Positions 19,286 to 49,314 of a stretch of 64,000 nt of DNA are shown one piece after another. A program made the position numbers and the translations under genes. Source of the DNA: a virus; IMG/VR virus record IMGVR_UViG_3300037423_000584; one strand, given 5' to 3'. Each line of letters starts with the position of its first letter. The first letter of the stretch is position 1. A model generated the notes under the pieces. It worked only from the letters and a program-made list of their open reading frames with translations, did not search any database and was not told the origin of the DNA.

Positions 19286-19315
19286 TATAAGTTGTTGTAA
19301 TTAGTAGATTTAATA

Positions 19316-20001: not shown

Positions 20002-21135
20002 ATGGCTAAGTACGAATTTTTAATGTTGGCTCACACTTTTGATGATACTAAACATTCTATATTAGATATGTTTGCATCAGAAAAAGTAGATGGAGTTCGT
20101 GCTTTTTGGGATGGTGGAATATCTAGGGGATTAGAATGTTCTGCTGTTCCTTATGCCAATATAGAAAAACATGCGAGATATCTAAGTCCGCCAAAGGCAA
20201 CTGGTTTGTGGACCAGATATGCTCAGCCGATCCAAGCACCTTCTTGGTTCCTAGATCAATTACCACGAATATTATTAGATGGTGAATTAACAGCAGGACG
20301 CAAAACATTTCAAATTGTTTCATCAGTAACAAGAAAAATAGTTCCAGATAATGGTTGGCAATCGATTAAGTATAAAATATTTGATTCACCATGTTTAGAA
20401 GCGGTTTTTCTTGATAGAACAGTTAAAAATCGTAATCTTGATAAAATATTTAAAAGTTGTACTGATTGGGCTAAACAAAGAATAAACCATCTTGGGTTAG
20501 ACGAGAGAGCATTTCCGGATCAAATGGACTTCGAAAGTGCTCTTTCTTTTTTGGTTCGCCATATTAGAGGTGATAATAAAGTAGTACAAATTCTTAATCA
20601 AATAAGGTTGTCTACTGATCATTCCGTGGCTAAGGAAATCTTGGACAGGGAACTTAAAGATATTGTCGAAGGTCGAGGAGAGGGTGTAATGCTTCGAAGA
20701 CCTGACAGTATTTGGTATCCGCAAAGATCTTATAATCTTTTAAAGGTTAAACCTACTTTAAAAGGACAAGCAATTATTATAGGTTATATTTGGGGCAAAG
20801 AAACAGACGTTGACAAAGCAATAGGTGTGGGAACTGCAAATAGAATGCTTGGTTACATGGGGGCAATTCGTTGTAGACTAGATTCAGGTAAAGAATTTAA
20901 AATATCTGGATTTGAAATGGCTGAACGAATTATGATTGCTAGTTATGTTAATTTTAATCTAACTCGTTCTGCTTATGATGAAGCATATGCGTATGGATAT
21001 CGTCATCCGGGTGAAGTTGTAGATTCTTCCAAGTTTTACAATCCTAGATTTCCTATAGGAAGTCGAATTAGATTTCAATATAGGGAATTAACAGATGATG
21101 GAATTCCTAAAGAAGCGAGATATTTAAGAGAATGA
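20002..21135 (+). CDS. lig: ATP-dependent DNA ligase
   Basis: SEKVDGVRA, LDGEL, IFD, EGVMLR, LLKVKP motifs plus OB-like C-terminus. Confidence 0.92.
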   Translation: MAKYEFLMLAHTFDDTKHSILDMFASEKVDGVRAFWDGGISRGLECSAVPYANIEKHARYLSPPKATGLWTRYAQPIQAPSWFLDQLPRILLDGELTAGRKTFQIVSSVTRKIVPDNGWQSIKYKIFDSPCLEAVFLDRTVKNRNLDKIFKSCTDWAKQRINHLGLDERAFPDQMDFESALSFLVRHIRGDNKVVQILNQIRLSTDHSVAKEILDRELKDIVEGRGEGVMLRRPDSIWYPQRSYNLLKVKPTLKGQAIIIGYIWGKETDVDKAIGVGTANRMLGYMGAIRCRLDSGKEFKISGFEMAERIMIASYVNFNLTRSAYDEAYAYGYRHPGEVVDSSKFYNPRFPIGSRIRFQYRELTDDGIPKEARYLRE

Positions 21136-22223
21136 ATACGCCAATTTTCGAAAATCACTGTAATCATTCTAAAGAATCATATGTTGGTTCTTTTTTCTTT
21201 GATGGTTGGCATGATGTGTATGTTTTTCCAAATCCAAGATATGACAAGATTGGAGAAGTTTGTATTCGTTATGGAAACGAAGGATCTGAATACATTTCTC
21301 CCGGCGGTATAACTGGATTTATGGAGAATCAAACTTTAATGCCAGAATATATCATTGCAAAAGCAATGATTGGAATATGGCTCAAGAAAGAAAAAGAAAT
21401 ATTTATACCAGAAGCTTGGGGTAATGGTTAAATGCGTTCACATATAATAGCTGTAATAAATCCAAATAACGCAGATAAAAATAGTGTGCAGGATATTATT
21501 GCAGCTATTAAAGATTGTGGAGGATTTGATATTGTTGATTTGGGTTCAGGAATGATTGAAGCAGTTGTGCCATCTATATCGTTGTGCGAGATTCACTTCA
21601 TGGATGGTGTTGGATGTGTCAGGACAGTGATGAACTACCAAGAGAAGTAAACTTCTTATATGATTAATAAGATTAAAAATCTTTGGTGGGCTTGGAAGAA
21701 TAGATGCAAAGATGTGAAATCAAGACATGGATACTATTTATCACCAACATCTTTTTACCATCATTCTGGTTGGATAGACCGAGCATTCATTCCTTGTAAA
21801 GTTTGTGGCGATAAGTATTGTAGATGGGCCGTGAATAGATATACAAAGAAAACTTGCGAAACTATTTGATATGAAAGAAATAATCGCATCAATATTGTTT
21901 TTGCCAATGATGTTTGTTTCATTTATCCCCGGTATTAAAAACGTAAAACGAATTCAGTTAATTAATAACTGGATTGGTAATCAAATCTGGAATGATAACA
22001 CGTAATGAAATATCTTAATCCTGTATACTTGCTTGGTTTTTTACTTGGCAAAATATGTAATTTTGTTGATTATATAGGTGATAAAATGTACGATGGATAT
22101 TTAAATTCAAGACGATAATTTATACAAGAAGATTAATTTATAATATTGACTATCTTGGTTTGATAGAACAATTAGATTAGTTTTCTTATATAAGATATGG
22201 GCATAGAAATGTGTCCTATAGAC

Positions 22224-22298
22224 GGGTCCGTAACTCAAGTTGGCTAGAGTGCTTCCCTTTTAAGGAAGAGGTTGTGGGATCATGCCCCACCGGACCCA
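22224..22298 (+). tRNA. tRNA-Lys(TTT) with atypical T loop
   Basis: GGGTCCG/CGGACCC; CTTCC-CTTTTAA-GGAAG; T loop ATCATGC. Confidence 0.8.
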
Positions 22299-22936
22299 TT
22301 TATCTGTTTTTTCTTTTTTAACCTTCTTATATGTCCTCTAATGGCATTATCAGTAACACCTAGTTCTTTTGCTAATTGAACATATGAAGTAGTTTCTAAT
22401 CTTTGTAACAGTTCTTGTTCTGTTGGCCATTGTATTTTTGTATCTCTTACTCTTTGTTGATTGGCACATGAAATACATCTGGTATAACCTCTACTGACTC
22501 TTTTTCCACAAAGACAAAAGTATTTTGGACTCGATTTTTGCTTTGGTGGTTTTTCTCTAATGGTAATAAATTTTGATTTATTGATTTCCCAATGTGTTTC
22601 CTTGTGACAATTAGAGCACAGAAGAATGCATTTATCTAATTCCGTAATTGTATCTGGATAAAGAATTTCTACATCAAATCTTCTGATTCTAGATATATTT
22701 ATATCCTTTTTGGATGGATCTAAATGATGAAATTCTAAAGCGGCTAAACATTTGTCATATCCACACTTACAACATTTTCCTCCTTTGTAATCTACACATA
22801 GTTTTTTAAACATTCTTTGTCGTTCTAAACTTTGTTCAGAACAACATTGTTTACAATAATGATAAGTGTTTGCTTTGCCGTTAATATAAAATTGTGATAT
22901 ATCTTTCTCTTGTTCACATCTTTTACACAATCTCAT
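22280..22936 (-). CDS. HNH (homing-type) endonuclease with C-terminal HTH
   Basis: GGKCCKCGY...LEFHHLDP...KCILLCSNCHKETH. Confidence 0.88.
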   Translation of the reverse strand: MRLCKRCEQEKDISQFYINGKANTYHYCKQCCSEQSLERQRMFKKLCVDYKGGKCCKCGYDKCLAALEFHHLDPSKKDINISRIRRFDVEILYPDTITELDKCILLCSNCHKETHWEINKSKFITIREKPPKQKSSPKYFCLCGKRVSRGYTRCISCANQQRVRDTKIQWPTEQELLQRLETTSYVQLAKELGVTDNAIRGHIRRLKKKKQINGSGGA

Positions 22937-23006
22937 TGAACTATCTCCTATATAAATAAAGTTTGTTATTTATTTATACAGGACAAGATTCAAATAATTT
23001 CAATTA

Positions 23007-23165
23007 ATGAAACCAAAAGTTAGAAAAGTTGGAATGAGCGATTATGAAATGAGAGATTATCATTTCAAATCTAAAGCTAGTAAAAAAGTTAGAAAGAGAA
23101 TGGCTAAACGATTGCGTTCTCGTGAGAAAAAAGAAATTAATAATTTGAATTCGGATGGAGATTAA
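23007..23165 (+). CDS. small Arg/Lys-rich protein (not in ORF track)
   Basis: 52 aa, KKVRKRMAKRLRSREKKEI. Confidence 0.5.
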   Translation: MKPKVRKVGMSDYEMRDYHFKSKASKKVRKRMAKRLRSREKKEINNLNSDGD

Positions 23166-24499
23166 ATCATGATTATAAAAGAAACTTTTCAAAAGCCGAT
23201 CGATAAATATACTCTTTGTGCAGACGAAGTTGCTGTGGCTATTAAAGAACATCTTCGTAAATATGGATACAAAATACGCGATAATCAAACAATTGAAGTA
23301 AATGGAGTTTTTATTGGAAAAGACGATAAAAGCTACCAAACTTTTTTAGTTAGATAGTTTACGCAATAAACCAAGGAAGGTAGGTAGAAAATGTTTCAGT
23401 ATTCATATTTAATTCATGAAGGAAAAGAAAAGGTAATTCCACAAGATAAAGTTCAAAAGCTTATCGATCTTAAAATTATTAAGAAATTTGAAGGTACTCT
23501 TAATAATTATCGTGGCAATAGAATAGTTTCTCCTATTTATACTTTTGATCAAGGGAAATCTTGGGCCGATGCTCAAGATATTTTACTAGTTAAACCCAAA
23601 TAGGTAGGGAGGTTTAAGAAAGGATTTGTATGGCAAATGTAACCGTTTCTCGTAAGGAAGGATATTCTAGATCCAAGATTTCTATCGATACAAATGGATT
23701 AGAACTTGGAGATATCATTCCACGGGTTGCAAATCCTTCTAGTTGGGGTTTTAACAAAATTGATTCTATTAAAGAAGAAGATGTTAAAAGAGCAATTGGA
23801 CACGCTCTGGAACCGGCAGAATTGATTGTCATTGGCATTTCTGGCGACATTATTACTGCGTATCATAGGGATTGGAATAACAAATATAGTCTTTATATGG
23901 CAAATAAAGATAGTATTACTCGTCCAATCTTTTAAAGAGGTGTCCTATGAGACACATTGTTGCACTTTGCGGACAGCTTGTGTTTTCTGAGATGATCGAA
24001 GATGACGAGGGGAAAATAGCTGGTAAAGTATATGTTGTAAATCCAGAGAAATCTTTTATAGTTGATACTATTGAATTTGGAGAAGATTCTCTAAAAGAAG
24101 CAGTTCAACAAATTAAAGAAAAGCTTCCTTCTGATGTTCGTCATTGTATTAAGTTTTATGAAATCCTATCTCCTTTGCAACCAGTAGAGATAGATGTACA
24201 ATAGAAATTGGTTGCACTACAATGGTCCTAGACAGAAATGTATGGGATCATTTTCTTTTACAAGAAGGTAGGTCATGCTTGTTATAGGAAAAGATCTTCT
24301 TAAAGATCTTAATCCAAAAACTATTATCGAAATAGTTAATCAACTAAATGATACTGCTAAAGTTTTTGGAACAGAATGTGTTATGATTAATGATTCTATC
24401 TGGACTAAAACAGAGATGGAGTCAAAAGACAAAGCAATGTTTAAGATATATGCATTAGGTATTATAACAGGATTAGTTATTGCAAAGAGAAGTTTATAG

Positions 24500-25045
24500 T
24501 CATTTCTAGTATCGGTTGGTACTACGATGTCCTCCTCTGTACCGTAAAAGTTCTTACTACTGATTCGAACCCATAGTAAGAATCCGATACTATGCCTAGG
24601 TACGTCGTAGTGACGAACTACGGCGTATCTTTATTGGTTATTATAGATACTTAAGTGTATCGTCCATACGAGCAATTAATGATAAGTTATGGATCACCTT
24701 GAGCAGAGCGATGCTCGGAGCTATAGGTTGTAATGACCAATTGTTGTCGCGAAATATGGTAAACAATTTTTAGAGTCTGTTATTACAGCAATGTAATAAC
24801 TCCAATGTTAAATCCTTTGTCGAACAGCATTTGGCACAGCACAAGGCCCAATTGGTAAGAGCATGTTTTTGATGCGGTCGCAATGACTGCGTTAGCGGCT
24901 CGATCGGCTAATGTGAGAATGAAACGCCGGGCAATTGCATATGCCTTCGCCATTTGTCCTAATAGATGTGAGTTATAGTTTCGGTCAATAACGCTATAAA
25001 TTGACTGATCGCTAGCAACTGTTTCGTTGGAAGCTCAGACTCTAT
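24500..25045 (+). ncRNA. candidate structured ncRNA
   Basis: ORF-free; TAGTATCGG/CCGATACTA, TTCTTACTA/TAGTAAGAA, TACGTCGTAGT/ACTACGGCGTA stems. Confidence 0.5.
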
Positions 25046-25049: not shown

Positions 25050-25195
25050 GCCCCAATAGTTTAACAGGACAGCGAGAAACACCTACCAAGCCCACGGCTT
25101 TCTGTGAAAGCAGAAGGTACGCCGCCGTTAGTGGATCTTGCTAAAAACCGTTGCCTCTCAGGCAAATGATCTACGTTCGAATCGTGGTTGGGGTA
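25050..25195 (+). ncRNA. tRNA-Glu(CTC)-like RNA with D-loop insertion, copy 1
   Basis: GCCCCAA/TTGGGGT; TTGC-CTCTCAG-GCAA; CTACG-TTCGAAT-CGTGG; insert class CCACGG/TACGCC. Confidence 0.85.
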
Positions 25196-25557: not shown

Positions 25558-25702
25558 GCCCCAGTAGTTTAATAGGCGAAGCGATACTATCTAAGTCACT
25601 AGGCTTCTTGAGAAATCAGGAAGTTATAGCACATTTAGTGTTGTCTTCTTAAAACGTTTCGCTCTCAGCGAAAATATCTTGGTTCGACTCCAAGCTGGGG
25701 TA
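25558..25702 (+). ncRNA. tRNA-Glu(CTC)-like RNA with D-loop insertion, copy 2
   Basis: GCCCCAG/CTGGGGT; TTTCG-CTCTCAG-CGAAA; insert class CACTAG/ATAGCA. Confidence 0.85.
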
Positions 25703-25898
25703 CTATGACAGCAGCAGAACTAGCACGGAAGCTAATGGAACATCCACATGTACAAGTTCACATGGAAGGAGAACTTAATGCCAATGTAGACCATTTTATA
25801 GATGCAATTGGCAAAATAGTCGTTGCTGAAATGAATATGAAAGAATATGGGGTTAAAAAAGGCGATCTCATAATCTTAAATAAAACTAGATGAAATTT

Positions 25899-26041
25899 GC
25901 CCCGCTAGTTCAATAGGCGAGAGAAATATCCTCTAAGTCACTAGGTTTCATGGTGAGTGAAACCATAGCACATTGGATGTCGCTCTCATAGAACAGATTC
26001 CTCTCAGGAATAAAATGTACGTTCGAATCGTACGCGGGGTA
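25899..26041 (+). ncRNA. tRNA-Glu(CTC)-like RNA with D-loop insertion, copy 3
   Basis: GCCCCGC/GCGGGGT; ATTC-CTCTCAG-GAAT; GTACG/CGTAC. Confidence 0.85.
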
Positions 26042-26051
26042 CTTTAATATT

Positions 26052-26291
26052 ATGGCTACATATCATTTAAGAAAAAAGGAAGATGAAGATTTCAGGATAG
26101 TTAGATACGAAGATGGCAGAATGCATTTCAATCCATGCTATCTTAATAAAAATGGTCTTTTTCAAAGAATAATAGAGAGACCGTATGATACTTATAACTC
26201 TAGGAGATATGCGATAGCTTTCTTTAAGAAGTGTTTGCCAAACGAAGTTCTTCGAGATGAAACTGCCAGAAAGACAAAGTTAATTAAGTAA
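26052..26291 (+). CDS. NSxRYA-family small protein
   Basis: YLNKNG...YNSRRYAIAFFKK. Confidence 0.8.
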   Translation: MATYHLRKKEDEDFRIVRYEDGRMHFNPCYLNKNGLFQRIIERPYDTYNSRRYAIAFFKKCLPNEVLRDETARKTKLIK

Positions 26292-26296
26292 TACAC

Positions 26297-26441
26297 GCCC
26301 TCGTGGTCTAATAGGCGGATGTTAAATTTACAATCACTAGTTTCCTGCGGAAACGTTGGAAAGATAGCATTGTTTATTTAATTATCCATATGACAGCCTT
26401 CTCTCAGAAGGAAAATGCACGTTCGAATCGTGTCGAGGGTA
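26297..26441 (+). ncRNA. tRNA-Glu(CTC)-like RNA with D-loop insertion, copy 4
   Basis: GCCCTCG/CGAGGGT; CCTT-CTCTCAG-AAGG. Confidence 0.85.
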
Positions 26442-26629
26442 TTAGTATTTTTTATAGGATTTGTAGTCAAATCTATGAGATATAAACAACTATTCGAAAC
26501 AACGGATGAAATTAAAGCAAATGAAAAAGTTCTCAATGGATGGGTTCTTATAGAAACTAAGAATGACTCTGGACGATTTAATAATAATCGTCCTATATAT
26601 GTATTAGGGATTCCTAAATAGTTCGATAC

Positions 26630-26714
26630 GCCGGTGTGGCGGAACGGCAGACGCTACGGACTTAAAATCCGTTGGGAGATAACTCCCGTAAGGGTTCGAT
26701 TCCCTTCTCCGGCA
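26630..26714 (+). tRNA. tRNA-Leu(TAA)
   Basis: Type II cloverleaf, ACGGA-CTTAAAA-TCCGT, variable arm GGGAG/CTCCC. Confidence 0.92.
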
Positions 26715-27327
26715 CTAATTTACTTGGATTAATTAAATGACACCTTATCAAAAACGTCTTTGCTTATTGGAATAATTGGCTGGTTATTTTACGCTGGTTT
26801 TTCATATCTAATTATTAGTAAAGGATATATAGAAGATAATGAATGGACTGTTGGTAAAAGAAATAGATGGATCACTATTTGTTTATTAACTGGTCCGTTT
26901 ATGTTTGCTTTTTTATTTTGTATTTGGATTTTCTTTAGTGATAAACCTGCTAAGTGGTAAATTATGATCAAGCATCATCCCTATATCTTTTTTGAACTTG
27001 TTTGAATTCTTTGTTGGATTGTTTCTTGGTTTATATATCGTTATTATGAACGAACAGATCATCCAAACAGATGGACTATTAGACACAGAAATATGTCTCT
27101 TGTGATTTGTTTTTGTATGTCGCCGATTGCAGCATTTTTGCTAACTATATTAGCAATGTTTAATTGTGCTGATAAATCATTTGAATATTGCAGTAAAAAA
27201 ATAAATCAACTTAGATCTTGGATTAAATCAGATACTAGAATTTCTGACTGGTAGAATTATACTGAAAATGATGAATAGGACTATTTCACAAGCAAAAACT
27301 TGGTAGATCTTGGATTCATTTTCTGGA

Positions 27328-27452
27328 AACAGATGACGCCAAACTAGGAATGGCAGGCGGCGAGATCGTCATGGCAATGATCGATGGATCAACGAAGCTC
27401 ATAAACCGCTAGACTAGTCCACCTATGTAGGTTCGATCCCTACCATCTGTTC
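27328..27452 (+). ncRNA. tRNA-like RNA with structured insertion in place of the anticodon loop
   Basis: AACAGATG/CATCTGTT; D arm GCCA/TGGC; GCGG/CCGC; GTAGG-TTCGATC-CCTAC. Confidence 0.65.
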
Positions 27453-28043
27453 TTTTATGGGAGGTATATGAGCGAAGAGTATACTGTGTTTTCTAACATA
27501 GGTATGATCAAAGGTTACTTTAATTTAACCGATGATGAATATCATAGGTTCAAAGAACTTATGAAATCTATGCACTTTATAATTCGGAAAGGACGTATAG
27601 AAAAATCGATTCGTATTCCTATTAATCGTCGTGTTGCAATTAGGGGTGCAGTTAAGCCAAATTCAGAACAATTGACATGATTATATTCCGAAAAGGTCAA
27701 AATCATAGTGTTTTGATTAATCTTTTTGTTGTTTGGATTATTGTTCATTATTGGTTTCCTAAATCGTACTGGAAACATTTTAGACTAACAAAGAAAGATC
27801 CCTTTTGGAATAGTTCTCTATATTTAGGACCTTTTGAATTTTACTGGGATCGACGACGACAATTTGATCAAGAACGAATCAGACTATTGTATCGATTTGC
27901 CATTATTGATTGGCATTTCGTAGTATGGAAAGAATACTGGCAGTTTAACGAAATCATTAAAGCGGAGGTGATTTTCTCAACAGCTAAATTGTTAGATTCG
28001 ATTAAGATTTAATACCTACCCTGATGACAAAGGATGGTTTGTT

Positions 28044-28679
28044 ATGGCCCAAGGTAGATTGAATAGAGACGGTCGTGATAGTTATCGTAACTTAGATAGA
28101 CCATTTCGTGCTCCGCGTGAAATCCTTGATAAAAATGGCGATTTTGTCAAGTTTCACGATATGGACGTAATGCGTCTTGGCAATCATGATAGGTCAATGA
28201 ATACCACTGGCTCATTTGGTGTTAAAAGCACAATGGGCGTCGGACGACTAAGTATAGTTGTCCGAAAAGGGGCACCTGGAAAATCAAGAGCCGGACGTAA
28301 AAAGAAAAACGGCTCAAAACTGATATCTCGTAGATTTACGATTGACTATGATAAGCATAGTTTTCCTCAGTTAAGAAACTTGAGGAATGATCTTATTGTA
28401 GTTAAAACGATGTCAGAAGGTCTTCCTGAACACCAAGGAAGAAAGCTGTTTACTTTTGAAATGCAAGATGTCTTAAGAACGTTAGATAATTACATAGAAA
28501 CAACGTTCGATGCTGCTCTTATTGAACAAATACACATCTCTGATCAACATAGAATTGCATCTACTAAAGGCATGATGCGTAGCGGGAAGGTAAGAGCAAA
28601 AGGTATTGAGGATCTTGGAAATAGAATTTACCGTGCTTTGTCTATAATGAACATAAAACACGGAAAAATGAACACATAA
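28044..28679 (+). CDS. basic hypothetical protein, paralog of 15065-15574
   Basis: Shared NTTG/APGK/KKKNGS motifs; AAAGGATGG RBS. Confidence 0.75.
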   Translation: MAQGRLNRDGRDSYRNLDRPFRAPREILDKNGDFVKFHDMDVMRLGNHDRSMNTTGSFGVKSTMGVGRLSIVVRKGAPGKSRAGRKKKNGSKLISRRFTIDYDKHSFPQLRNLRNDLIVVKTMSEGLPEHQGRKLFTFEMQDVLRTLDNYIETTFDAALIEQIHISDQHRIASTKGMMRSGKVRAKGIEDLGNRIYRALSIMNIKHGKMNT

Positions 28680-29806
28680 CATAACAATCTGCGTTGTGTC
28701 ATGGAATCCCATATATCGAAAGATTATGGGATTTCTTTATGAAAAGAAATATAGAAAACATTATCATAATATTGATAATTGTGTTTCTTACTATTATAAT
28801 TCCATTGTTATGTCTTTATGTAATTTGGGCTTAATATTACGTTTGCTATATTAAAGATTATAGTTAACGTAATACTCAAACAATAAGAAAATACAGTTCT
28901 ATCAAGAAGACTTTCAAAATTAAATTAGTCTAAATAACCAAATCTTATGTTTATAAATCTTCTTGACTAGACTGTATTTATCTCTTTTATACTTAATACT
29001 TACAAAATACTTAAGTAATATCGTATAAATTCAGAGAACTTTTTACTAGAAAATAAATAAATCTATGTGGGAATTCTTTAAATTCATTAGTATACTTTGT
29101 TTGACAATGATTGTAGTGTTTACTACTATTTGGTTTATCTCTAATCTTGCTAACTTATTATGAATAAAAGAATTAGAAAAACTATTATTAGAATTGTAAA
29201 TGCTTTTGAAGAAGGCGATTACAATCTTGTAGATTCTTTGTCCAAAAAACTTGACTATTTAAAAGAAAGCCATTTTGGACGCATTATGGACAAAATGATC
29301 GATGGCCAAAATTAATTACAAAGTAAATGATTTCGTTACTATTTTGAAATACAAAAACGATCCTATCAACAAAGAAGGAAGAATAACTGTTGTATACGAA
29401 AGTGGTCATGTTCATGTCAGCAATTTAAATATGCCATTTTGTGGATCTGTTAATAGAATTTTTAGACCAGATGAAATTGCACCTGTTACAAATATTGACT
29501 AATTTATATTGTTTAGATGGAGACGATTCTAGTTTAACAGAAGACGAAAAAGAAAAGATTAAACAATCTCTAGGTCCAAACTGGAGAACTATTCTGTTGG
29601 AAAAGAAAGTTAAACAGACTCAAGTTCAAGATGAACAAATTCCAGCTATTTGCGAGTCGTCAGAATTATCGTAGGCTATGCGTGGGAGGTGGGATAACCT
29701 CCACCATAGGTTTCATATAGTTTAAACGCTATATGAAATCTTAAAGGATGGAAGGGGATTAGGGGTGAAACACCATTCGTTGTGGCTTAGCCACAGGAGT
29801 TACACC

Positions 29807-30298
29807 ATGGCTGAACAAGCAGCCAATATTCAGAGCTTCGCTGATGATGCAATGCATCGGCTGGCTACGTATCTCAAGGTTACTGATCGCTCGCAGGAAT
29901 GGATCGATCAGAATATCGAATGCGTTGCAGCTTTGCTTGACATTACCAAGCACGACGCACTGGAAGGCATGAAGAAATTCATGACCTTGGAAAATCGTGA
30001 GAATCAACAGGGTCAAGTCCGTCAGGAAGCTAGACAGACTGCCACTGTTGGTTCTGGTGGAGGCGGTGGAGAACAGGATGCTCGCGAAGAGCTTGATAAA
30101 GCAATTCGTGAGTCTCAGGGTGGCGGTGGTGGTGGACAAGGAGGCCAAGGCGGTGGCGGCGGAAGGCCGCAGAATAGTCCGTCCGCTAATCAGGCCAGAA
30201 GCCAAGCCTTACAAGGCAACCAGAACGCTGCTGGTCCACATTCCGGCGGCGGTGGGCGTGGCCAAGGAGGCGGTGGAGGCGGTGGAGGCCAAGCGTAA
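29807..30298 (+). CDS. protein with Gly/Gln-rich disordered C-terminus
   Basis: AGGAG RBS; GGGGGQGGQGGGGGR repeats. Confidence 0.7.
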   Translation: MAEQAANIQSFADDAMHRLATYLKVTDRSQEWIDQNIECVAALLDITKHDALEGMKKFMTLENRENQQGQVRQEARQTATVGSGGGGGEQDAREELDKAIRESQGGGGGGQGGQGGGGGRPQNSPSANQARSQALQGNQNAAGPHSGGGGRGQGGGGGGGGQA

Positions 30299-30354
30299 TT
30301 TTTAACAAATGAGGTAATCACAAGTGTCCCCGTAGGAAACTGCGGGGATATTTT

Positions 30355-41104: not shown

Positions 41105-41314
41105 ATGACTACGTACTATAAATTAAGAAATGAGAGATCTGGATATAGAATAATAAAATATCCGCAAGGTGAACCTCACTTATATCTTCTTAAGAACGGA
41201 ACTTGGTATCGTTGGTATAATAATAGAATTCTTTTTAATTCAAGAAGATATGCGATTCAAATTTTCAAAAAATATTATCCAAACGATAGGTTAATAGATG
41301 AATCCACTTCCTGA
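41105..41314 (+). CDS. NSxRYA-family small protein
   Basis: YLLKNGTW...FNSRRYAIQIFKKYYP. Confidence 0.8.
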   Translation: MTTYYKLRNERSGYRIIKYPQGEPHLYLLKNGTWYRWYNNRILFNSRRYAIQIFKKYYPNDRLIDESTS

Positions 41315-41513
41315 TACTGAATATGAAATAGCTTCTGGTTTTCGCGGATATAGAATAATAAAATGGTTCTGGGATAACAATAATATATATCGTTATAATT
41401 ATCTTGATAAAAATGGCAACTGGACCAGAGAACATTGCCATTATAATTCAAAGAGATATGCTATAAGTATATTTAAAAAATATCTTCCAAAAACAAAATT
41501 CTTTATAAAATAA
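41298..41513 (+). CDS. NSxRYA-family small protein
   Basis: YLDKNGNW...YNSKRYAISIFKKYLP. Confidence 0.8.
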   Translation: MNPLPDTEYEIASGFRGYRIIKWFWDNNNIYRYNYLDKNGNWTREHCHYNSKRYAISIFKKYLPKTKFFIK

Positions 41514-41517
41514 CAAC

Positions 41518-41661
41518 GCCCCAGTGGTCTAATAGGCGAGGAGTGAATTTGAGAAGTCCCCAGTTTGCTGTGCAAACAGTAGATATGGCACCTCATATTT
41601 ACGAATCATATGACAGTGCTCTCTCAGAGCAAAGATCCAAGTTCGAATCTTGGCTGGGGTA
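41518..41661 (+). ncRNA. tRNA-Glu(CTC)-like RNA with D-loop insertion, copy 8
   Basis: GCCCCAG/CTGGGGT; TGCT-CTCTCAG-AGCA; CCAAG/CTTGG. Confidence 0.85.
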
Positions 41662-41671
41662 TTTTTGATAT

Positions 41672-41929
41672 ATGAAATATTTTATAGATGCTACATGTCC
41701 AGAAGATATAGTTGTCATGAGACAACCAGAAAATCGTGAATTGTATCCAGACTCAGTTTGGCTTAATCACGATGGCAAATGGGAAGATAGTCCATACTAT
41801 GAACGCAACAGAACAGAATATAATAAATTTCTTAAAAGAACTACATTTAATTCTGTAAGATGGGCTCTTTCTGTTTTATATAAAGCAGAAGGTAAAAAGA
41901 TCAAAAAAGAAATAATTACAGATTTTTAA
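41672..41929 (+). CDS. NSxRYA-family small protein
   Basis: WLNHDGKW...FNSVRWALSVLYK. Confidence 0.8.
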   Translation: MKYFIDATCPEDIVVMRQPENRELYPDSVWLNHDGKWEDSPYYERNRTEYNKFLKRTTFNSVRWALSVLYKAEGKKIKKEIITDF

Positions 41930-41934
41930 TTATT

Positions 41935-42081
41935 GCCCCGATGGTCTAATAGGCGACAATGAATTAAGAATATCCCCAGTTTCCTAGCGAAAACGCTAAG
42001 AAATATGGCATATCTTGATTCTGAGTCAGATGACGACAATCTCTCAGATTGTAGATCTTCGTTCGAGTCGAAGTCGGGGTA
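41935..42081 (+). ncRNA. tRNA-Glu(CTC)-like RNA with D-loop insertion, copy 9
   Basis: GCCCCGA/TCGGGGT; ACAAT-CTCTCAG-ATTGT; CTTCG/CGAAG. Confidence 0.85.
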
Positions 42082-42085
42082 TTTT

Positions 42086-42328
42086 ATGACAAAAGAATTA
42101 GTGATATTTAATATTCCCGGAGAACCATCTTATAGAATACAAGCACTTGGATATGATGGTTTTCCCGGTGAAGACGCAAGAGTTGGCAAAAATAAAAAAC
42201 TTCATAATTTAACTGTTTATACTGTTGGTACTTATAATACAGAATTAGATTTTAATTCTCGTCGTTATGCGATACAAGTCGCAAAAGAATTTGATCCATC
42301 TGCTAAAATAACAACTACAAAATACTAA
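42086..42328 (+). CDS. NSxRYA-family small protein
   Basis: MTKELVIF...FNSRRYAIQVAK. Confidence 0.8.
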   Translation: MTKELVIFNIPGEPSYRIQALGYDGFPGEDARVGKNKKLHNLTVYTVGTYNTELDFNSRRYAIQVAKEFDPSAKITTTKY

Positions 42329-42549
42329 TGATAAAGGTTTCAAGATCACATTGGAATAATAAACTTTTCTATGTAATGAATGTAGAAAATAATAATTTCC
42401 TAAGAACAGATGGAACTTGGCGACATCTTGAGCGTGGCTATCTAAGGATAGAACAAAATCCGGAGTTCTATTTCAATTCAAGAAGATGGGCAATTTCTGT
42501 TCTAAAGAAACTAATTCCAGATGTTAAATTTAGAGATTTTGCAAAATGA
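42328..42549 (+). CDS. NSxRYA-family small protein
   Basis: FLRTDGTW...FNSRRWAISVLKKLIP. Confidence 0.8.
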   Translation: MIKVSRSHWNNKLFYVMNVENNNFLRTDGTWRHLERGYLRIEQNPEFYFNSRRWAISVLKKLIPDVKFRDFAK

Positions 42550-42779
42550 AAGAATGTTGGATATCAGACTGGCACAGTGGCATGGTATGGATAAACGAAG
42601 GAAGATTTCCTGATTCTCTAAGATCACTAACTATTTATGGAACATTAGAACCTTGGGTAGCAGGAAACAAAAAGTTTACATTTTCATCCAGAAGATATGC
42701 AATTCAAGTTCTAAGAAAATATTTTCCAAATTGTAAAATAACTAGAGATATGCAAAAAGAAAAAGAAAGACGTAGATAA
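42546..42779 (+). CDS. NSxRYA-family small protein
   Basis: FSSRRYAIQVLRKYFP. Confidence 0.75.
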   Translation: MKECWISDWHSGMVWINEGRFPDSLRSLTIYGTLEPWVAGNKKFTFSSRRYAIQVLRKYFPNCKITRDMQKEKERRR

Positions 42780-42798
42780 AAGTTTGTAATTATTTTAC

Positions 42799-42945
42799 GC
42801 CGCTTTGGTCTAATAGGAGGTGAGGATATGGGACTAATCCCCAGCTTTCTTGCGAAAGCGAGACAGTATGGCATTGCCTAATATTCAAACCAAATGATAT
42901 CTTTCTCTCAGAAAGAAGATAAAGGTTCGAATCCTTTAAGCGGTA
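42799..42945 (+). ncRNA. tRNA-Glu(CTC)-like RNA with D-loop insertion, copy 10
   Basis: GCCGCTT/AAGCGGT; TCTTT-CTCTCAG-AAAGA; AAAGG/CCTTT. Confidence 0.85.
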
Positions 42946-42953
42946 TTTAGATT

Positions 42954-43175
42954 ATGAGATATATTATATTTAATGGCACATTAGGATGGTTAGTTTGGAC
43001 AGACACTGCTCCAAATGAAAAATATTTACATAAAAGTGGAGATATTAGAGAATGGGATCGTACTAATTGGAAAGATCATTGTGTAAATTCACGAAGACAT
43101 GCAATACAATTAATAAAGAAAATTGATCCAAAAGCTAAAATAATATCATATAGATATAGATATCCTGAAAGATAA
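42954..43175 (+). CDS. NSxRYA-family small protein
   Basis: YLHKSG...VNSRRHAIQLIKKIDP. Confidence 0.8.
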   Translation: MRYIIFNGTLGWLVWTDTAPNEKYLHKSGDIREWDRTNWKDHCVNSRRHAIQLIKKIDPKAKIISYRYRYPER

Positions 43176-43180
43176 AACAC

Positions 43181-43299
43181 GCCCCAGTAGTTTAACAGGG
43201 TAACTAGAGTTATTATACGCCACGGGCCGAATTAACTTAAGTTACAAAGAACAATCAACTCTCAGTTGAAAAGTATTCGTTCGAATCGGATCTGGGGTA
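43181..43299 (+). ncRNA. tRNA-Glu(CTC)-like RNA with short D-loop insertion, copy 11
   Basis: GCCCCAG/CTGGGGT; TCAA-CTCTCAG-TTGA; insert stem GTAACT...AGTTAC. Confidence 0.8.
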
Positions 43300-43309
43300 C
43301 TTAAACTAT

Positions 43310-43528
43310 ATGACTGAATACATATTATGGAAATCAAATGACTACAGAGGTTACTTCTTTGTAACAAAATATGATGAATATGGATATTGTAAGGCATATT
43401 TATCAAAATCTGTTTCGTGGACTCATCAATTAGATAGAAATATAACTTATTTTAATTCAGAAAGATACGCTATTCAAATATTAAAATTATTGGTTCCTAA
43501 CGCAAAGTATACTAAGTATAAGTATTAA
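43310..43528 (+). CDS. NSxRYA-family small protein
   Basis: YLSKSVSW...FNSERYAIQILK. Confidence 0.8.
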   Translation: MTEYILWKSNDYRGYFFVTKYDEYGYCKAYLSKSVSWTHQLDRNITYFNSERYAIQILKLLVPNAKYTKYKY

Positions 43529-43564
43529 AATCCTCGCATGTGTAATAAGGGAAAACATAAAACC

Positions 43565-44371
43565 TTATTGCATAGATGCGAGATGTAAACATTTTATCCT
43601 TTTGTCTATTATTGACTTTATTTGATCATAAAATTCAAGTATTTTATATTGTTTACCACAATATCTATGAGATATATCTATTATATGTAATTCGATATTG
43701 TTTTCATTACATAATATTTGTTTTCTTTTATCAGATTCAGTTGTTCTATTAAAACTTTTTTCTCCGTAAATTGGTTTATAATGACAAATTCCATTAATTT
43801 CGAAAGCAATATCTAACTTTGGTATTAATATATCAAGTTCAAGTCCAGATAGAATATTTCTATTATTGAATAGAATATTTAAATCTGGATAATTTTTTCT
43901 TAATAGTTTTTCTATACAAATTTCTGCTTTTGATCTTCCTAAATCATTTTTTTGACAGTAGTTGTGATAACACGGTCCAGAACAAAAATTTCTTTCATTA
44001 TTATTGCTTGGTTTTCTGAAAATATCCTTATTGCAATAAGCACAATTTGATTTTATTTTTTCTGGTCCTCTAGGATCGTGTCCATGTCTTTCTTTTAAGG
44101 TATAAACAGAACAGCATTTCCTAGAACAAAAGTGTCTAGGATATTCTTTAACTTGTCCAGTAAGTTTATTAAATACTTTATCACATCTTAAGCATTTTAC
44201 TTCTGTATATGTTTTGTAATCTTTTAATTGTTGCCTTCTGAAATAAGTTGTTCTACAAGATCTTGTACAGAAATTAGATGTTGTTCTTTTAATTTCCGAA
44301 TTAAATTTTAGAAATTCATTATCACAATATAAACACTTAACTAAGGTACTATTATTTAAATTTTTATGCAT
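43565..44371 (-). CDS. putative homing endonuclease: three CxxC/FCSxxC zinc repeats plus Vsr/DUF559-like PD-(D/E)XK domain
   Basis: SKAE...ELDILIP..DIAFEINGICHY...D.RK. Confidence 0.8.
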   Translation of the reverse strand: MHKNLNNSTLVKCLYCDNEFLKFNSEIKRTTSNFCTRSCRTTYFRRQQLKDYKTYTEVKCLRCDKVFNKLTGQVKEYPRHFCSRKCCSVYTLKERHGHDPRGPEKIKSNCAYCNKDIFRKPSNNNERNFCSGPCYHNYCQKNDLGRSKAEICIEKLLRKNYPDLNILFNNRNILSGLELDILIPKLDIAFEINGICHYKPIYGEKSFNRTTESDKRKQILCNENNIELHIIDISHRYCGKQYKILEFYDQIKSIIDKRIKCLHLASMQ

Positions 44372-45004
44372 AAAACTATAAATGAAAGTTATGGAATAAT
44401 TAATAAAAATGTTGGATATCGATATTTATTATCGAGTCCAGACAATATTGATGTTAATAAAAAATATCCTCTTATTGTCTATCTATCATCAGCGGGATGT
44501 AGAGGAAGTATAGAAGCCGTAAAACAAGAATCTGTTTGTTCTTGGTTTAAAAACCATATTCCTTTTTATGTTCTTGCACCCGTTTGTCCTCATAACGAAA
44601 TTTATGATCCTGACTCTGTAAAATATTTGATTGATAAAACAGTTGCAGAAAATCCTATTGATATAAATCGTTTATATGTCAGTGGATACAGTATGGGGTC
44701 AAGAGGCTGTCATAATTGTCTTTCTGAGTATCCAGATCTATTTGCAGCTTCAGTTATAGTCTGTGGAGTGTCGTCATATCTAGTTGCTGCTAAATATGCT
44801 CATGTTCCAATACATCTATTTCACGGTGATAAAGACGAAGTTGTTAGTATAAACGAATCCTTAAAAATATTTCATGCTTTAAGAGAGCATGGTGGTAATC
44901 CTAAGTTCCAAGTTCTTAAAGGATTTGGACATGATATTTACGAAGAAGTTTATGGTTCCACCGATACGTATCGGTGGTTATTGTCTCATTCTAAGAAAGG
45001 GTAA
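44366..45004 (+). CDS. alpha/beta-hydrolase (esterase/peptidase)
   Basis: KYPLIVYL, RLYVSGYSMG, HGDKDEVV, GH triad pattern. Confidence 0.85.
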   Translation: MHKTINESYGIINKNVGYRYLLSSPDNIDVNKKYPLIVYLSSAGCRGSIEAVKQESVCSWFKNHIPFYVLAPVCPHNEIYDPDSVKYLIDKTVAENPIDINRLYVSGYSMGSRGCHNCLSEYPDLFAASVIVCGVSSYLVAAKYAHVPIHLFHGDKDEVVSINESLKIFHALREHGGNPKFQVLKGFGHDIYEEVYGSTDTYRWLLSHSKKG

Positions 45005-45006
45005 TT

Positions 45007-45153
45007 ATGCCTGGTCCGTCTGGTCAAGTTAATGCTCGTCATGCTCGTCATACCGCTGGCAAGAAGGGCTTTGGTGCCGAACGTCATCTTATGAATCTTT
45101 CTCCTTCTACGGAACGTGGGAAGCGTCGTAGGGCGAAGAAGGGTAAGAAGTAA
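45007..45153 (+). CDS. 48-aa very basic peptide (not in ORF track)
   Basis: MPGPSGQVNARHARH...ERGKRRRAKKGKK; CGT/AAG-rich codon usage. Confidence 0.55.
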   Translation: MPGPSGQVNARHARHTAGKKGFGAERHLMNLSPSTERGKRRRAKKGKK

Positions 45154-45351
45154 TAAATATATGGAAGCAATACTGTTTAAAACAGTTGTATCGTTTTTTG
45201 TTTGTGTTTTTATTGGATTCTTTGTAGCATTAGCTACTTCTGGTAATGACGAAGCTTTAGCTAAATGGTATACCCACAAATACTTTCCATGTATTTGTAT
45301 TATTTTTGGGTCTACTATTGTCGTAGAAATAATGCTATTTTAATATAGCTC

Positions 45352-45498
45352 GCCCGCATGGTCTAATAGGCGAATATAATATTACCCAATCCCCAGCTTT
45401 TGTGCAAAAAGCATAAGAGCATGGCATTGGGTTTTATTATATTCATATGACAGTCACCTCTCAGGTGACAGATGAAAGTTCGACTCTTTCTGCGGGTA
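45352..45498 (+). ncRNA. tRNA-Glu(CTC)-like RNA with D-loop insertion, copy 12
   Basis: GCCCGCA/TGCGGGT; GTCAC-CTCTCAG-GTGAC; GAAAG/CTTTC. Confidence 0.85.
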
Positions 45499-45505
45499 TT
45501 TTGTT

Positions 45506-45751
45506 ATGTTAATACGTTTGTATCAAAATCCAAATCCAAATAGTAATACATTTATATGCTATATCAAGAATAATTCAGAAAATTGGCCTTGGGGTAAAAC
45601 ATATTATCTGAAAAATAATGGTGTGTGGCATAAAAATAGATGGCCCGGATGGGACGATAAATGTCATAATATAATATATAATTCTAGAAGATACGCTATA
45701 CAAACAATCAAAAAATATTTTCCAGATGCAAGAATCAAAGAAATTAAATAA
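45506..45751 (+). CDS. NSxRYA-family small protein
   Basis: YLKNNGVW...YNSRRYAIQTIKKYFP. Confidence 0.8.
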   Translation: MLIRLYQNPNPNSNTFICYIKNNSENWPWGKTYYLKNNGVWHKNRWPGWDDKCHNIIYNSRRYAIQTIKKYFPDARIKEIK

Positions 45752-45932
45752 TTTATTCAAAATGCTATCTTATTCATCAGATGGTATCATGAATATTTAT
45801 ATCAGAGATAAAAAGTATAGTTATATAAATGTTCCAAGAAATCTTTATCAAAGAATAGATTTTCTTATATCTAAAAACAATAACTCTTTAGTATCTAAAT
45901 TATTAAAAAATGTTCAAATATATAATAATTAA
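45726..45932 (+). CDS. KTSC-like small protein
   Basis: YSYINVPRNLY motif. Confidence 0.4.
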   Translation: MQESKKLNNLFKMLSYSSDGIMNIYIRDKKYSYINVPRNLYQRIDFLISKNNNSLVSKLLKNVQIYNN

Positions 45933-46143
45933 ATCTTCGATGGTAAGAGGATCTTTTTATATAAAAAGAACTTCAGACAATGATAATAAAAGATGGTTTC
46001 TAAATCCTAAAAAAGATCTTTGGGAAGATCGTATTGATTATATAAACACTCGACATTTGTATTATAATTCATACAGATATGCAGTACAAAGACTTAAGAA
46101 ATTGATACCTGATATAAAGTTTATCTATCAGGATTTTTCATAA
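45910..46143 (+). CDS. NSxRYA-family small protein
   Basis: YNSYRYAVQRLKKLIP. Confidence 0.8.
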   Translation: MFKYIIIKSSMVRGSFYIKRTSDNDNKRWFLNPKKDLWEDRIDYINTRHLYYNSYRYAVQRLKKLIPDIKFIYQDFS

Positions 46144-46144
46144 T

Positions 46145-46390
46145 ATGTATAAATACGAAATAGTCAAATCTAAACATCATAAGAAAAATTGGTTCTTTAT
46201 AAGAAGAAGACCAACGAAAAGAAATACTTGGATATGGGGATATTTATCCGATTCTTTTGAACGTTGGCATTGGGTATATCGCGAATGGGATTCCGAATAT
46301 CATTATAATTCCTTTAGACGAGCAGTACAGCGTCTTAAAGAAATTGTTCCAAATGCTAAGTATAGATTTATAGATCAAACAAAGTTATAA
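46145..46390 (+). CDS. NSxRYA-family small protein
   Basis: YNSFRRAVQRLKEIVP. Confidence 0.8.
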   Translation: MYKYEIVKSKHHKKNWFFIRRRPTKRNTWIWGYLSDSFERWHWVYREWDSEYHYNSFRRAVQRLKEIVPNAKYRFIDQTKL

Positions 46391-46614
46391 TGATATATAA
46401 AGTAATGAAATTTGGTAGAATGGGATGGTACATTACATCTATTATTCCAATAAATAAAGAGTATCCAAATAGAGATTATTATCTTCACAAAGATGGCAGA
46501 TGGATATATGGAACTATGAATGAAAATAAAGAATATTCTGGATATTTTAATACCAGAAGATATGCCATTCAAGTATTAAAGAAATATTACCCAGATGCAA
46601 AAGTGGCAAAATGA
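46390..46614 (+). CDS. NSxRYA-family small protein
   Basis: YLHKDGRW...FNTRRYAIQVLKKYYP. Confidence 0.8.
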   Translation: MIYKVMKFGRMGWYITSIIPINKEYPNRDYYLHKDGRWIYGTMNENKEYSGYFNTRRYAIQVLKKYYPDAKVAK

Positions 46615-46844
46615 AATGGTTAGTAGCTAATCAATATGCAAATCATTGGTACGTTTGTAGAATAGAACGTCTCGACTTTAGACATAAAACAATATATCTT
46701 TCTAAAACAGGAAAAGAAATTATTGGTCCATATAATAATTTTGGCCAACTTTACTTTAATTCCCGAAGATTTGCAATACAAATAGTTAAACAAGTAGACA
46801 AAAATGCTAAATTGGTTAAAAACGCAATCGAGCTATTTAATTAG
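46611..46844 (+). CDS. NSxRYA-family small protein
   Basis: YLSKTG...FNSRRFAIQIVK. Confidence 0.8.
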   Translation: MKWLVANQYANHWYVCRIERLDFRHKTIYLSKTGKEIIGPYNNFGQLYFNSRRFAIQIVKQVDKNAKLVKNAIELFN

Positions 46845-47097
46845 TTGCTTTTTCATTAAAAAAAATAGATATAAGTATCAGATTGTTGTTAAGACAAACG
46901 GTTATCGTTATATCCAACGTTTTGATAGAGAATTTGAACTATTTTCTTATCTTACAAAGAAAGGTAAATGGGACATAAGAAGACCATATAGTGTATTCGA
47001 AGATAATGATAGACTATATAATAGTAGACGATTTGCGATTTCACAATTGAAATCAAAAATAGGCGATAAAGAATTTCAAGAAATAAAAGGTTTGTAA
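46804..47097 (+). CDS. NSxRYA-family small protein (start uncertain)
   Basis: YLTKKGKW...YNSRRFAISQLK. Confidence 0.75.
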   Translation: MLNWLKTQSSYLISCFFIKKNRYKYQIVVKTNGYRYIQRFDREFELFSYLTKKGKWDIRRPYSVFEDNDRLYNSRRFAISQLKSKIGDKEFQEIKGL

Positions 47098-47103
47098 TTA
47101 ATC

Positions 47104-47249
47104 GCCCCATTAGTTTAACAGGACAGTTTGTTGATTTTACCAAGTCCACGGCTTTTTGCGAAAGCAAAAAGTACGCCACCGTTTGATCGACTTACTAAAA
47201 ACCTCTTTCTCTCAGAAAGATGATTTACGTTCGAATCGTAAATGGGGTA
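47104..47249 (+). ncRNA. tRNA-Glu(CTC)-like RNA with D-loop insertion, copy 13
   Basis: GCCCCAT/ATGGGGT; TCTTT-CTCTCAG-AAAGA; insert class CCACGG/TACGCC like copy 1. Confidence 0.85.
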
Positions 47250-47253
47250 TTAT

Positions 47254-47481
47254 ATGTTTCACTATGCTTTGGCGATACAAAATCAGGCTTTAAACACGTT
47301 TAGAATAGTACGTTTTGGAGGTGGATTTGGAGCACATCGTCTTAATAAAGATGGAAAATTTGTTCCAATAGGAGAAAAATATGAAAAATATAATTCTAGA
47401 AGGCATGCTATACAAATGTTTAAAAAATTCGTTCCAAACGAAAAACTATTTGATAATAGTACCGGCAAAGTAATTAAATAG
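47254..47481 (+). CDS. NSxRYA-family small protein
   Basis: LNKDGKF...YNSRRHAIQMFKKFVP. Confidence 0.8.
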   Translation: MFHYALAIQNQALNTFRIVRFGGGFGAHRLNKDGKFVPIGEKYEKYNSRRHAIQMFKKFVPNEKLFDNSTGKVIK

Positions 47482-47486
47482 AATAT

Positions 47487-47691
47487 GCCCCACTAGTTTA
47501 ACAGGAAGTACATGTAACTTGTGGACCAAAGTTCCCAGTCTAGATATTACAATTCTCTTATGTATCGACAGTATACATTTGTGATCGCAAGATCTCAGAG
47601 GATTTGTTTTTGATGATATGGCACTCCATGTTCGGTACGAAAACAGTTGTCTCTCAGATAAAAGATCGTCGTTCGAATCGACGGTGGGGTA
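47487..47691 (+). ncRNA. tRNA-Glu(CTC)-like RNA with extra-long D-loop insertion, copy 14
   Basis: GCCCCAC/GTGGGGT; TTGT-CTCTCAG-ATAA; CGTCG/CGACG; TCCCAG...ATGGCA core enclosing about 75 nt. Confidence 0.8.
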
Positions 47692-49180: not shown

Positions 49181-49314
49181 TCCCAGCGTAGTTTAAATAC
49201 GAGCATCTGATCTAAACACCAAGGAGTGAAATCTTTGGTGTATTTTTGTTTGTCTTGTGGGAAAACATCGCTCGCTTGGGCGACATTAAGAGTTCGAATC
49301 TCTTCGTCTGGGAC
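49181..49314 (+). ncRNA. degenerate tRNA-like RNA with D-loop insertion
   Basis: TCCCAG/CTGGGA; GTTT/AAAC D stem; TCGCT/GGCGA arm; AAGAG-TTCGAAT-CTCTT. Confidence 0.6.

What the first reader, a model, noticed from the sequence alone, without database searches (positions are those of the whole stretch)
25558..47691. Conserved internal motif in the D-loop inserts, in three covarying subclasses
Seen: inside the variable insert stem is a conserved core flanking a variable, usually GNRA-capped hairpin. The forms are TCACTAG..NATAGCA (copies 2, 3, 4, 6), T(C/T)CCCAG..YATGGCA (5, 7, 8, 9, 10, 12, 14) and CCACGG..TACGCC (1, 13; remnant in 11). CTA/TAG versus CCA/TGG is a compensatory change, bordered by a G.A pair and a C-rich asymmetric loop. 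The distal hairpin ranges from about 12 nt (copies 6, 7) to about 75 nt (copy 14) and is absent in copy 11. Inference: this is a protein- or ligand-binding module (C-loop-like) carried on a tRNA elbow, not a spliced intron.
Basis: partly seen in the sequence, partly recalled or inferred. Interest (0 to 1): 0.75.

Follow-up and report, generated by a model that had tools for sequence, protein, structure and literature searches.

The report
C-loop arm on phage tRNA-Glu copies
An uncultured phage carries 15 diverged glutamate-tRNA genes, each with a long extra hairpin in the D-loop; 13 hairpins hold the same small C-loop-type structure at a nearly fixed distance from the tRNA elbow, which suggests a kept docking or hinge module on RNAs loaded by the phage's own glutamyl-tRNA synthetase rather than an intron.

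Summary
Observation confirmed, with corrections. The 172.5-kb phage has 15 tRNA-Glu(CUC) copies (window 25050-50237), each with a 49-135-nt arm after G18G19. Thirteen carry the core. A strict pattern finds 12, against 0.08 expected by shuffling, at 18-22 nt and 19-21 nt from the arm ends. The compensatory changes are real. The "G·A pair" is better read as G-Y plus a bulged A. The core fits a C-loop by sequence: form 1 is rRNA C50 plus one extruded C. The same module recurs at the same offsets in another phage contig (L161). There the anticodon loop is replaced by GNRA and the neighbouring GluRS lacks its anticodon domain. This genome encodes a full GluRS and no normal tRNA-Glu. It shows no BHB, EndA, RtcB or Rnl2-type ligase. 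RNA form does not track the downstream NSRRYA protein (p=0.53). Best reading: a retained arm on glutamylated, largely off-ribosome carrier RNAs. The possible acceptors are five weakly GNAT-like Cys paralogs beside two M28-like peptidases; this step is inferred. No RNA data were available. Earlier notes of this scan saw related sealed-anticodon tRNA-Glu mimics with GluRS in other phages. I found no paper or Rfam family.

The parts
25050..25195 (+). copy 1, tRNA-Glu(CUC) body with 76-nt D-loop arm; form 3 core at 25091-25097 / 25118-25124 (closing pair C-G)
25558..25702 (+). copy 2, 75-nt arm; form 1 core 25596-25602 / 25625-25631
25899..26041 (+). copy 3, 73-nt arm; form 1 core 25938-25944 / 25964-25970
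26297..26441 (+). copy 4, 75-nt arm; form 1 core 26334-26340 / 26363-26369
39883..40030 (+). copy 5, 78-nt arm; form 2 core 39921-39927 / 39954-39960
40309..40443 (+). copy 6, 65-nt arm; form 1 core 40347-40353 / 40366-40372; 12-nt distal hairpin
40964..41099 (+). copy 7, 66-nt arm; form 2 core 41002-41008 / 41021-41027; 12-nt distal hairpin
41518..41661 (+). copy 8, 74-nt arm; form 2 core 41557-41563 / 41584-41590
41935..42081 (+). copy 9, 77-nt arm; form 2 core 41973-41979 / 42004-42010
42799..42945 (+). copy 10, 77-nt arm; form 2 core 42838-42844 / 42867-42873
43181..43299 (+). copy 11, 49-nt arm; form 3 remnant at 43219-43229, distal hairpin deleted
45352..45498 (+). copy 12, 77-nt arm; form 2 core 45390-45396 / 45420-45426
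47104..47249 (+). copy 13, 76-nt arm; form 3 core 47145-47151 / 47172-47178
47487..47691 (+). copy 14, 135-nt arm; form 2 variant (U for the first C) 47532-47538 / 47617-47623; 78-nt distal part
CCGTGA (50166), shared with three related phage contigs
53369..61804 (+). candidate partner cluster (link inferred, not shown): five conserved-Cys paralogs (53369, 54319, 56620, 59926, 60881) with a weakly GNAT-like C-terminal half, and two M28-like peptidases (55651, 57940)

Best explanation
The insert is a retained fifth arm, not an intron. Its core is a C-loop-type module (Y-C-M-M-Y / R-S-C-R, then one more pair, a G-Y pair and a bulged A) held 10-17 pairs from the tRNA elbow. It gives a protein-docking surface or a fixed twist, while the distal hairpin is a free cap. 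The RNAs are cut out of the operon as tRNAs, receive CCA from the host and are loaded with glutamate by the phage's own GluRS. That explains the invariant CUC loop, U11-A24, G18G19, A15·U48 and T-loop. They then work mainly off the ribosome as glutamate carriers. The most likely users are the phage's conserved-Cys, GNAT-like paralogs, with the M28-like peptidases as erasers. Shown: anatomy, covariation, spacing, recurrence in another phage, GluRS gene with intact motifs. Inferred: C-loop geometry, no splicing (about 0.8), charging (about 0.65), non-decoding, and transfer by the Cys proteins (about 0.3).
For: Core in 13/15 copies, with near-fixed offsets in 12 although flanks diverge. Same module at offsets 18/20 in three RNAs of contig L161, where MFE folding alone gives the 3x2 loop and ACG/CGC changes to ACA/TGC. 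In L161 the anticodon loop is a GNRA tetraloop and the adjacent 297-aa GluRS has no anticodon domain, so module and tRNA body persist without decoding. This genome encodes a full GluRS above the TIGR00464 cut-off with catalytic motifs but no normal tRNA-Glu. Other phages with short GluRS carry tRNA-Glu-derived RNAs with D-loop hairpins and no anticodon loop. Cys paralogs and M28-like genes lie near GluRS in four related contigs. Their C-terminal half repeatedly aligns to GNAT folds, including FemX. Position 51:63 is A-U or U-A in 14/15 copies, never G-C.
Against: No RNA or biochemical data. The GNAT match is weak (Z about 5, rmsd 4-5 A, no Foldseek hit at E<=0.001). The Cys-paralog profile found nothing in 28 other phage records, including those with anticodon-less mimics (no positive control). 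A complete 224-kb phage has D-loop-armed tRNA-Glu genes but no GluRS. All 15 copies here keep a perfect anticodon loop, as decoding tRNAs would. Most sampled Pirellulaceae tRNA-Glu(CUC) also lack G51-C63 (3 of 11 have it), so the EF-Tu argument is weak. The anticodon/GluRS co-loss with this module rests on one 4-kb contig.
Confidence: 0.45

Rival explanations
1. Working GAG-decoding tRNAs that keep the arm. The arm makes them a phage-private pair with the phage GluRS or shields them from host tRNA-attacking defences.
For: The anticodon loop, G1·U72 and A73 match ordinary Pirellulaceae tRNA-Glu(CUC). All stems covary. The phage has GluRS and no other tRNA-Glu.
Against: GAG is only 18% of Glu codons in long ORFs, so 15 copies are hard to justify. 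L161 keeps the module without an anticodon. A narrow pattern over 185,579 genomes found almost no structured D-loop arms in cellular tRNA-Glu. A 75-nt arm at the elbow should clash in the ribosome (my own knowledge, not modelled).
Confidence: 0.15
2. Decoys or sponges for a host factor that recognises tRNA-Glu(CUC), such as an anticodon nuclease or host GluRS. They may act as RNPs with the basic NSRRYA proteins bound at the C-loop.
For: High copy number with diverged stems and invariant loops. 11/15 copies are followed within 4-10 nt by an NSRRYA gene, and L160 and L161 show the same layout. The proteins are basic (net +1 to +11) and fold weakly like eL38/UPF0339.
Against: RNA form tracks neither downstream protein (p=0.53) nor tRNA body (p=0.54). 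NSRRYA genes occur with no such RNA nearby (L162, L163; cluster at genome 160929-161880). A decoy role does not explain the joint loss of anticodon loop and GluRS anticodon domain in L161.
Confidence: 0.17
3. Non-canonical D-loop introns removed by an unknown endonuclease and ligase, with the core as the recognition site.
For: The exon halves form a clean 70-nt tRNA-Glu body. Related contig L160 has an insert-less version of the same scaffold. Phage tRNA introns of unknown mechanism are reported in Lak phages (PMC6784885).
Against: No shared BHB, and copies 3, 8, 9 and 10 have no candidate at all. The inserts are too short for group I or II. No EndA, RtcB or PF09414 ligase in the genome. The first inserted base varies. 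Excision in L161 would yield an anticodon-less RNA.
Confidence: 0.12
4. Dispersed processing or regulatory repeats. tRNA-shaped punctuation releases near-leaderless mRNAs for the small genes, and the core is a binding site for a regulator.
For: Most copies sit 4-8 nt after a stop and 2-10 nt before an ATG. Another D-loop-armed tRNA-like RNA (30355-30463) carries the antisense of the phage's strong leader motif.
Against: Ordinary tRNAs in related phages are packed the same way (L187). Punctuation would not need an invariant anticodon loop or the core.
Confidence: 0.11

Closest known systems
C-loop RNA motif (23S rRNA C50; T-box stem I hinge; PMC2441787, PMC2952876, PMC4919913)
   Same: Asymmetric loop with a C-N-M long strand between two closing pairs and extruded bases on the short strand; form 1 equals the C50 strands with one extra extruded C.
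   Different: It sits in a tRNA D-loop arm, with an invariant extruded C and a bulged A two pairs away. The base triples that define the motif were not observed.
Planctomycete (Pirellulaceae) tRNA-Glu(CUC), Rfam RF00005
   Same: GCCCC-type acceptor with G1·U72 and A73, CUCUCAG loop, U11-A24, 4-nt variable loop, standard T-arm.
   Different: 49-135-nt arm after G18G19, 15 diverged copies (mean body identity 68%), A15·U48 instead of G15·C48.
Non-proteinogenic tRNAs as aminoacyl donors (Staphylococcus tRNA-Gly for FemXAB; own knowledge; FemX recognition PMC2655667, title only)
   Same: Extra isoacceptors with a weak 51:63 pair, encoded in a genome with GNAT-like proteins.
   Different: Glutamate, phage-encoded synthetase and an added structured arm; transfer is not shown.
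Archaeal non-canonical D-loop tRNA introns (BHB type) and Lak phage tRNA introns (PMC6784885)
   Same: Insert interrupts an otherwise intact tRNA gene at about position 20/21.
   Different: No BHB, no endonuclease or ligase found, and a conserved internal module at a fixed distance.
Bacterial Y RNAs (YrlA) with Ro60/Rsr (own knowledge)
   Same: tRNA-shaped RNA with an appended stem that may bind protein.
   Different: No TROVE gene, no Rfam Y RNA match, intact acceptor end and anticodon arm.

Membership tests
C-loop motif | Asymmetric internal loop with a 3-nt C-N-(C/A) long strand and 1-2 extruded bases between closing pairs | tested here: met
   12 window copies and 3 L161 copies fit; copy 14 has U for the first C; compared with the C50 construct
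C-loop motif | Closing pairs are canonical and covary | tested here: met
   U-A 11 / C-G 1 and C-G 8 / U-A 4; U·G in L161
C-loop motif | Two crossing non-Watson-Crick pairs forming base triples | not testable with these tools
   needs a structure or JAR3D-type scoring; forms 2 and 3 would need C·G in place of C·A (plausible from own knowledge only)
tRNA-Glu (elongator) | Cloverleaf with 7-bp acceptor, D, anticodon and T stems and elbow bases | tested here: met
   Rfam tRNA scores 41.5 and 34.7 bits for copies 8 and 6
tRNA-Glu (elongator) | D-loop of normal size (about 7-11 nt) | tested here: not met
   55-141 nt
tRNA-Glu (elongator) | Aminoacylated with Glu and decodes GAG | not testable with these tools
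   GluRS gene present; no functional data
Archaeal-type BHB tRNA intron | Bulge-helix-bulge at the exon-intron junctions | tested here: not met
   no copy has a full motif giving a 7-11-nt ligated D-loop; four copies have no candidate
Archaeal-type BHB tRNA intron | EndA endonuclease and RtcB ligase available | tested here: inconclusive
   absent from the phage; host not identified or searched
Group I or II self-splicing intron | Catalytic core of about 200 nt or more; Rfam match | tested here: not met
   inserts 49-135 nt, mostly single hairpins; no Rfam intron hit
Y RNA (YrlA/YrlB) | Ro60/Rsr gene in the same genome and match to a Y RNA model | tested here: not met
Non-proteinogenic aminoacyl-donor tRNA | EF-Tu antideterminant at 51:63 | tested here: inconclusive
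   14/15 A-U or U-A, 0 G-C, but only 3/11 Pirellulaceae tRNA-Glu(CUC) have G-C
Non-proteinogenic aminoacyl-donor tRNA | A cognate aminoacyl-tRNA-dependent transferase | tested here: inconclusive
   Cys paralogs align weakly with GNAT folds, FemX Z 4.9, rmsd 5.2, 129 aligned

The most novel reading that the evidence does not exclude
A phage-encoded glutamylation system built on addressable carrier RNAs. One GluRS charges a library of tRNA-Glu scaffolds whose D-loop arms (three C-loop forms plus a fourth class) route each to a different transferase or target, with M28-like peptidases reversing the mark.
Probability: 0.2. Interest if true: 0.92.

Novelty: new variant of a known kind. Interest (0 to 1): 0.7.

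Why it matters
It shows natural tRNA scaffolds carrying a large, selected fifth arm with a recognisable 3D module, invisible to default tRNA scans (0 of 15 called by default ARAGORN or Rfam gathering). It offers a testable reason why some phages carry GluRS: to charge RNAs used off the ribosome. The three natural forms and the deletion copy are a ready mutational series for probing and binding assays. If the arm is tolerated by a synthetase, position 20/21 is a new place to graft modules onto tRNA.

Tried and rejected
RNA evidence: no RNA holder was listed; this is no evidence either way. Exact-pattern scans of IMG/VR found no close relatives. INPHARED had no match for the RNA or a Cys paralog. 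Rfam gives only tRNA. NSRRYA proteins have no Pfam family and no clear fold match. Guide-RNA idea rejected: the longest insert matches elsewhere in the genome are 11-15 nt, mixed in orientation and with no shared target. Cognate RNA-protein pairing by form rejected (p=0.53; the protein tree is unresolved). G·A pair rejected in favour of G-Y plus bulged A. An alternative short D-stem pairing with AGGC, favoured by MFE, was rejected because the distal D strand covaries. Tyr-to-Phe in the GluRS TY motif is not special; it also occurs in cellular enzymes. Promoter-like sites are at chance level. Literature searches found no description, and the original C-loop paper was not held. A C-loop-like stretch in L104 is ambiguous and was not counted. 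Complex prediction was not used because it cannot model RNA.
Full report
Setting. The window lies in a 172,542-base phage record. A search of the whole genome finds 15 RNAs with the loop CUCUCAG, all inside the window. Each parses as acceptor stem, U8, D-stem, AAYAGG, an insert of 49-135 nt, then the D-stem 3' strand, anticodon arm, 4-nt variable loop, T-arm and GGU-A. The D-stem strand after the insert covaries with the strand before it (G10-C25 / A10-U25, C12-G23 / U12-A23), so the insert is truly in the D-loop. The same body with G1·U72, A73 and C32/G38 is the ordinary tRNA-Glu(CUC) of Pirellulaceae. The phage GluRS also groups near Phycisphaerae enzymes. The host is therefore probably a planctomycete (inference). 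Default ARAGORN and Rfam gathering call none of the 15 copies.

Checking the observation. A pattern fitted to them finds 12 of 15 copies, against 0.08 expected from dinucleotide shuffles. Copy 14 differs by one base. Copy 11 keeps both half-sites at offsets 19/19 with the distal hairpin deleted. On alignment A3 the core pairs covary: C-G 8 / U-A 4, A-U 10 / G-C 2, closing U-A 11 / C-G 1. The distal part is 12-78 nt and ends in GAAA or GCAA in 9 of 13. Two corrections follow. The invariant G faces U or C in 11 of 12 copies, so the invariant A is a bulge. The first apparent pair (C-G) becomes A·C in form 3. These are paralogs, so few independent changes underlie the counts.

What the core is. 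Written as Y1 C2 M3 M4 Y5 / R6 S C R7, form 1 is U-CAC-U / A-GC-A. The rRNA C50 C-loop used in PMC2441787 reads G-CAC-U / A-G-C, the same strands with one fewer extruded base. In that reading position 4 is not Watson-Crick paired, which explains form 3. A T-box C-loop has CUC in the long strand and acts as a hinge that sets helical phase (PMC4919913), so CCC and CCA are plausible variants. C-loops are also described as protein-binding sites (PMC2952876). The defining triples could not be tested. The invariant extruded C hints at specific recognition (inference).

Other genomes. The NSRRYA family has about 60 relatives outside this genome. Contig L161 holds three RNAs with the same D-arm start and a form-3 core at offsets 18/20. 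MFE folding gives the 3x2 loop unaided, and ACG/CGC changes to ACA/TGC in two of them. In these RNAs the anticodon loop is replaced by a GNRA tetraloop, and the adjacent gene is a 297-aa GluRS with no anticodon-binding domain. This genome has a full GluRS at 153200-154669, above the TIGR00464 cut-off, with HIGH- and KMSKS-like motifs, and no normal tRNA-Glu. So the anticodon is invariant where GluRS can read it and lost where it cannot, while the module stays. That points to charging rather than decoding, but for this module it rests on one contig. More distant phages with short GluRS carry tRNA-Glu-derived RNAs with D-loop hairpins and no anticodon loop, without the C-loop core. One complete phage has D-loop-armed tRNA-Glu genes and no GluRS. 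Copy 15 belongs to a fourth class (AAACCGG ... CCGTRA) also found in L129, L160 and L309. In L129 and L309 it lies just upstream of the homologue of ORF 52030. This class looks like the conserved ortholog, and the C-loop forms like a lineage expansion.

Splicing. No bulge-helix-bulge is shared, and four copies have no candidate. The genome lacks EndA, RtcB, the PF09414 ligase family and TROVE. The inserts are too short for self-splicing introns. Lak phage tRNA introns (PMC6784885) show that unknown routes may exist, and no RNA run was listed, so splicing is unlikely but untested.

Partners. Eleven of 15 copies precede an NSRRYA gene. Insert form tracks neither that protein (p=0.53) nor the tRNA body (p=0.54), and the most similar proteins follow forms 1, 2 and 3. 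The proteins are small and basic, with a confident model but only weak likeness to eL38/UPF0339. It has five paralogs with invariant Asp, Ser-Cys and Arg, and two M28-like peptidases. The same set lies near GluRS in L163, L185/L309, L186 and L187/L310. The model (pLDDT 87) aligns through its C-terminal half to many GNAT-fold proteins including FemX, but only at Z about 5 and rmsd 4-5 A. Some GNAT-fold enzymes use aminoacyl-tRNA (own knowledge), which makes these candidates for the acceptor step. The profile found nothing in 28 other phage records.

Verdict. The motif is real, conserved across two phages and best read as a C-loop-type module on a retained D-loop arm. The most likely job of the RNAs is to carry glutamate off the ribosome (0.45). 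Rivals are decoy RNP (0.17), decoding tRNA (0.15), intron (0.12) and punctuation (0.11). I found no paper or Rfam family. Earlier notes of this scan describe related mimics in other phages; they are leads, not support.

Noticed in passing
window 30355-30463 (+): tRNA-like RNA with a 40-nt D-loop insert and a 5-nt anticodon loop; the insert is antisense to the AAGGTAGGT leader found about 20 times in window 5000-24300, mostly before small genes. A second use of the D-loop as a module carrier.
   Followed up: partly
window 49182-49313 (+): Degenerate D-loop-armed tRNA-like RNA without the CUC loop (37 bits with model R1).
   Followed up: partly
L006 6677-6738 (genome about 154677-154738), just after the GluRS gene: Mini tRNA-like RNA with acceptor, D and T arms but no anticodon arm.
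   Followed up: no
window 27328-27450 and 24508-24590 (+): Further odd tRNA-like folds: one with an insert in the anticodon arm, one with an extended stem around a T-loop-like sequence.
   Followed up: no
window 32053-32224 and 19316-19394 (+): Two tandem tRNAs with anticodon UAU and long variable arms, the first with an 8-bp acceptor, and a tRNA with a UCU loop missed by ARAGORN; allo-tRNA-like from memory, not tested.
   Followed up: no
L247 15709-16586, L264, L267, L235, L236, L218: Arrays of tRNA-Glu-derived RNAs with D-loop hairpins and replaced anticodon arms near a 280-300-aa GluRS lacking the anticodon domain; this short GluRS family has about 300 members.
   Followed up: partly
L095 1144-1370, L100 3238-3343, L104 4255-4383 and 5351-5576: Other phages with D-loop inserts of 28-156 nt in tRNA-Glu genes with intact anticodon, most with encoded CCA.
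   Followed up: partly
L129 792-952: D-loop-armed copy whose anticodon loop has only 6 nt, in tandem with a class 4 copy.
   Followed up: no
genome 160929-161880: Four more NSRRYA genes with no tRNA-like RNA of this kind nearby.
   Followed up: partly
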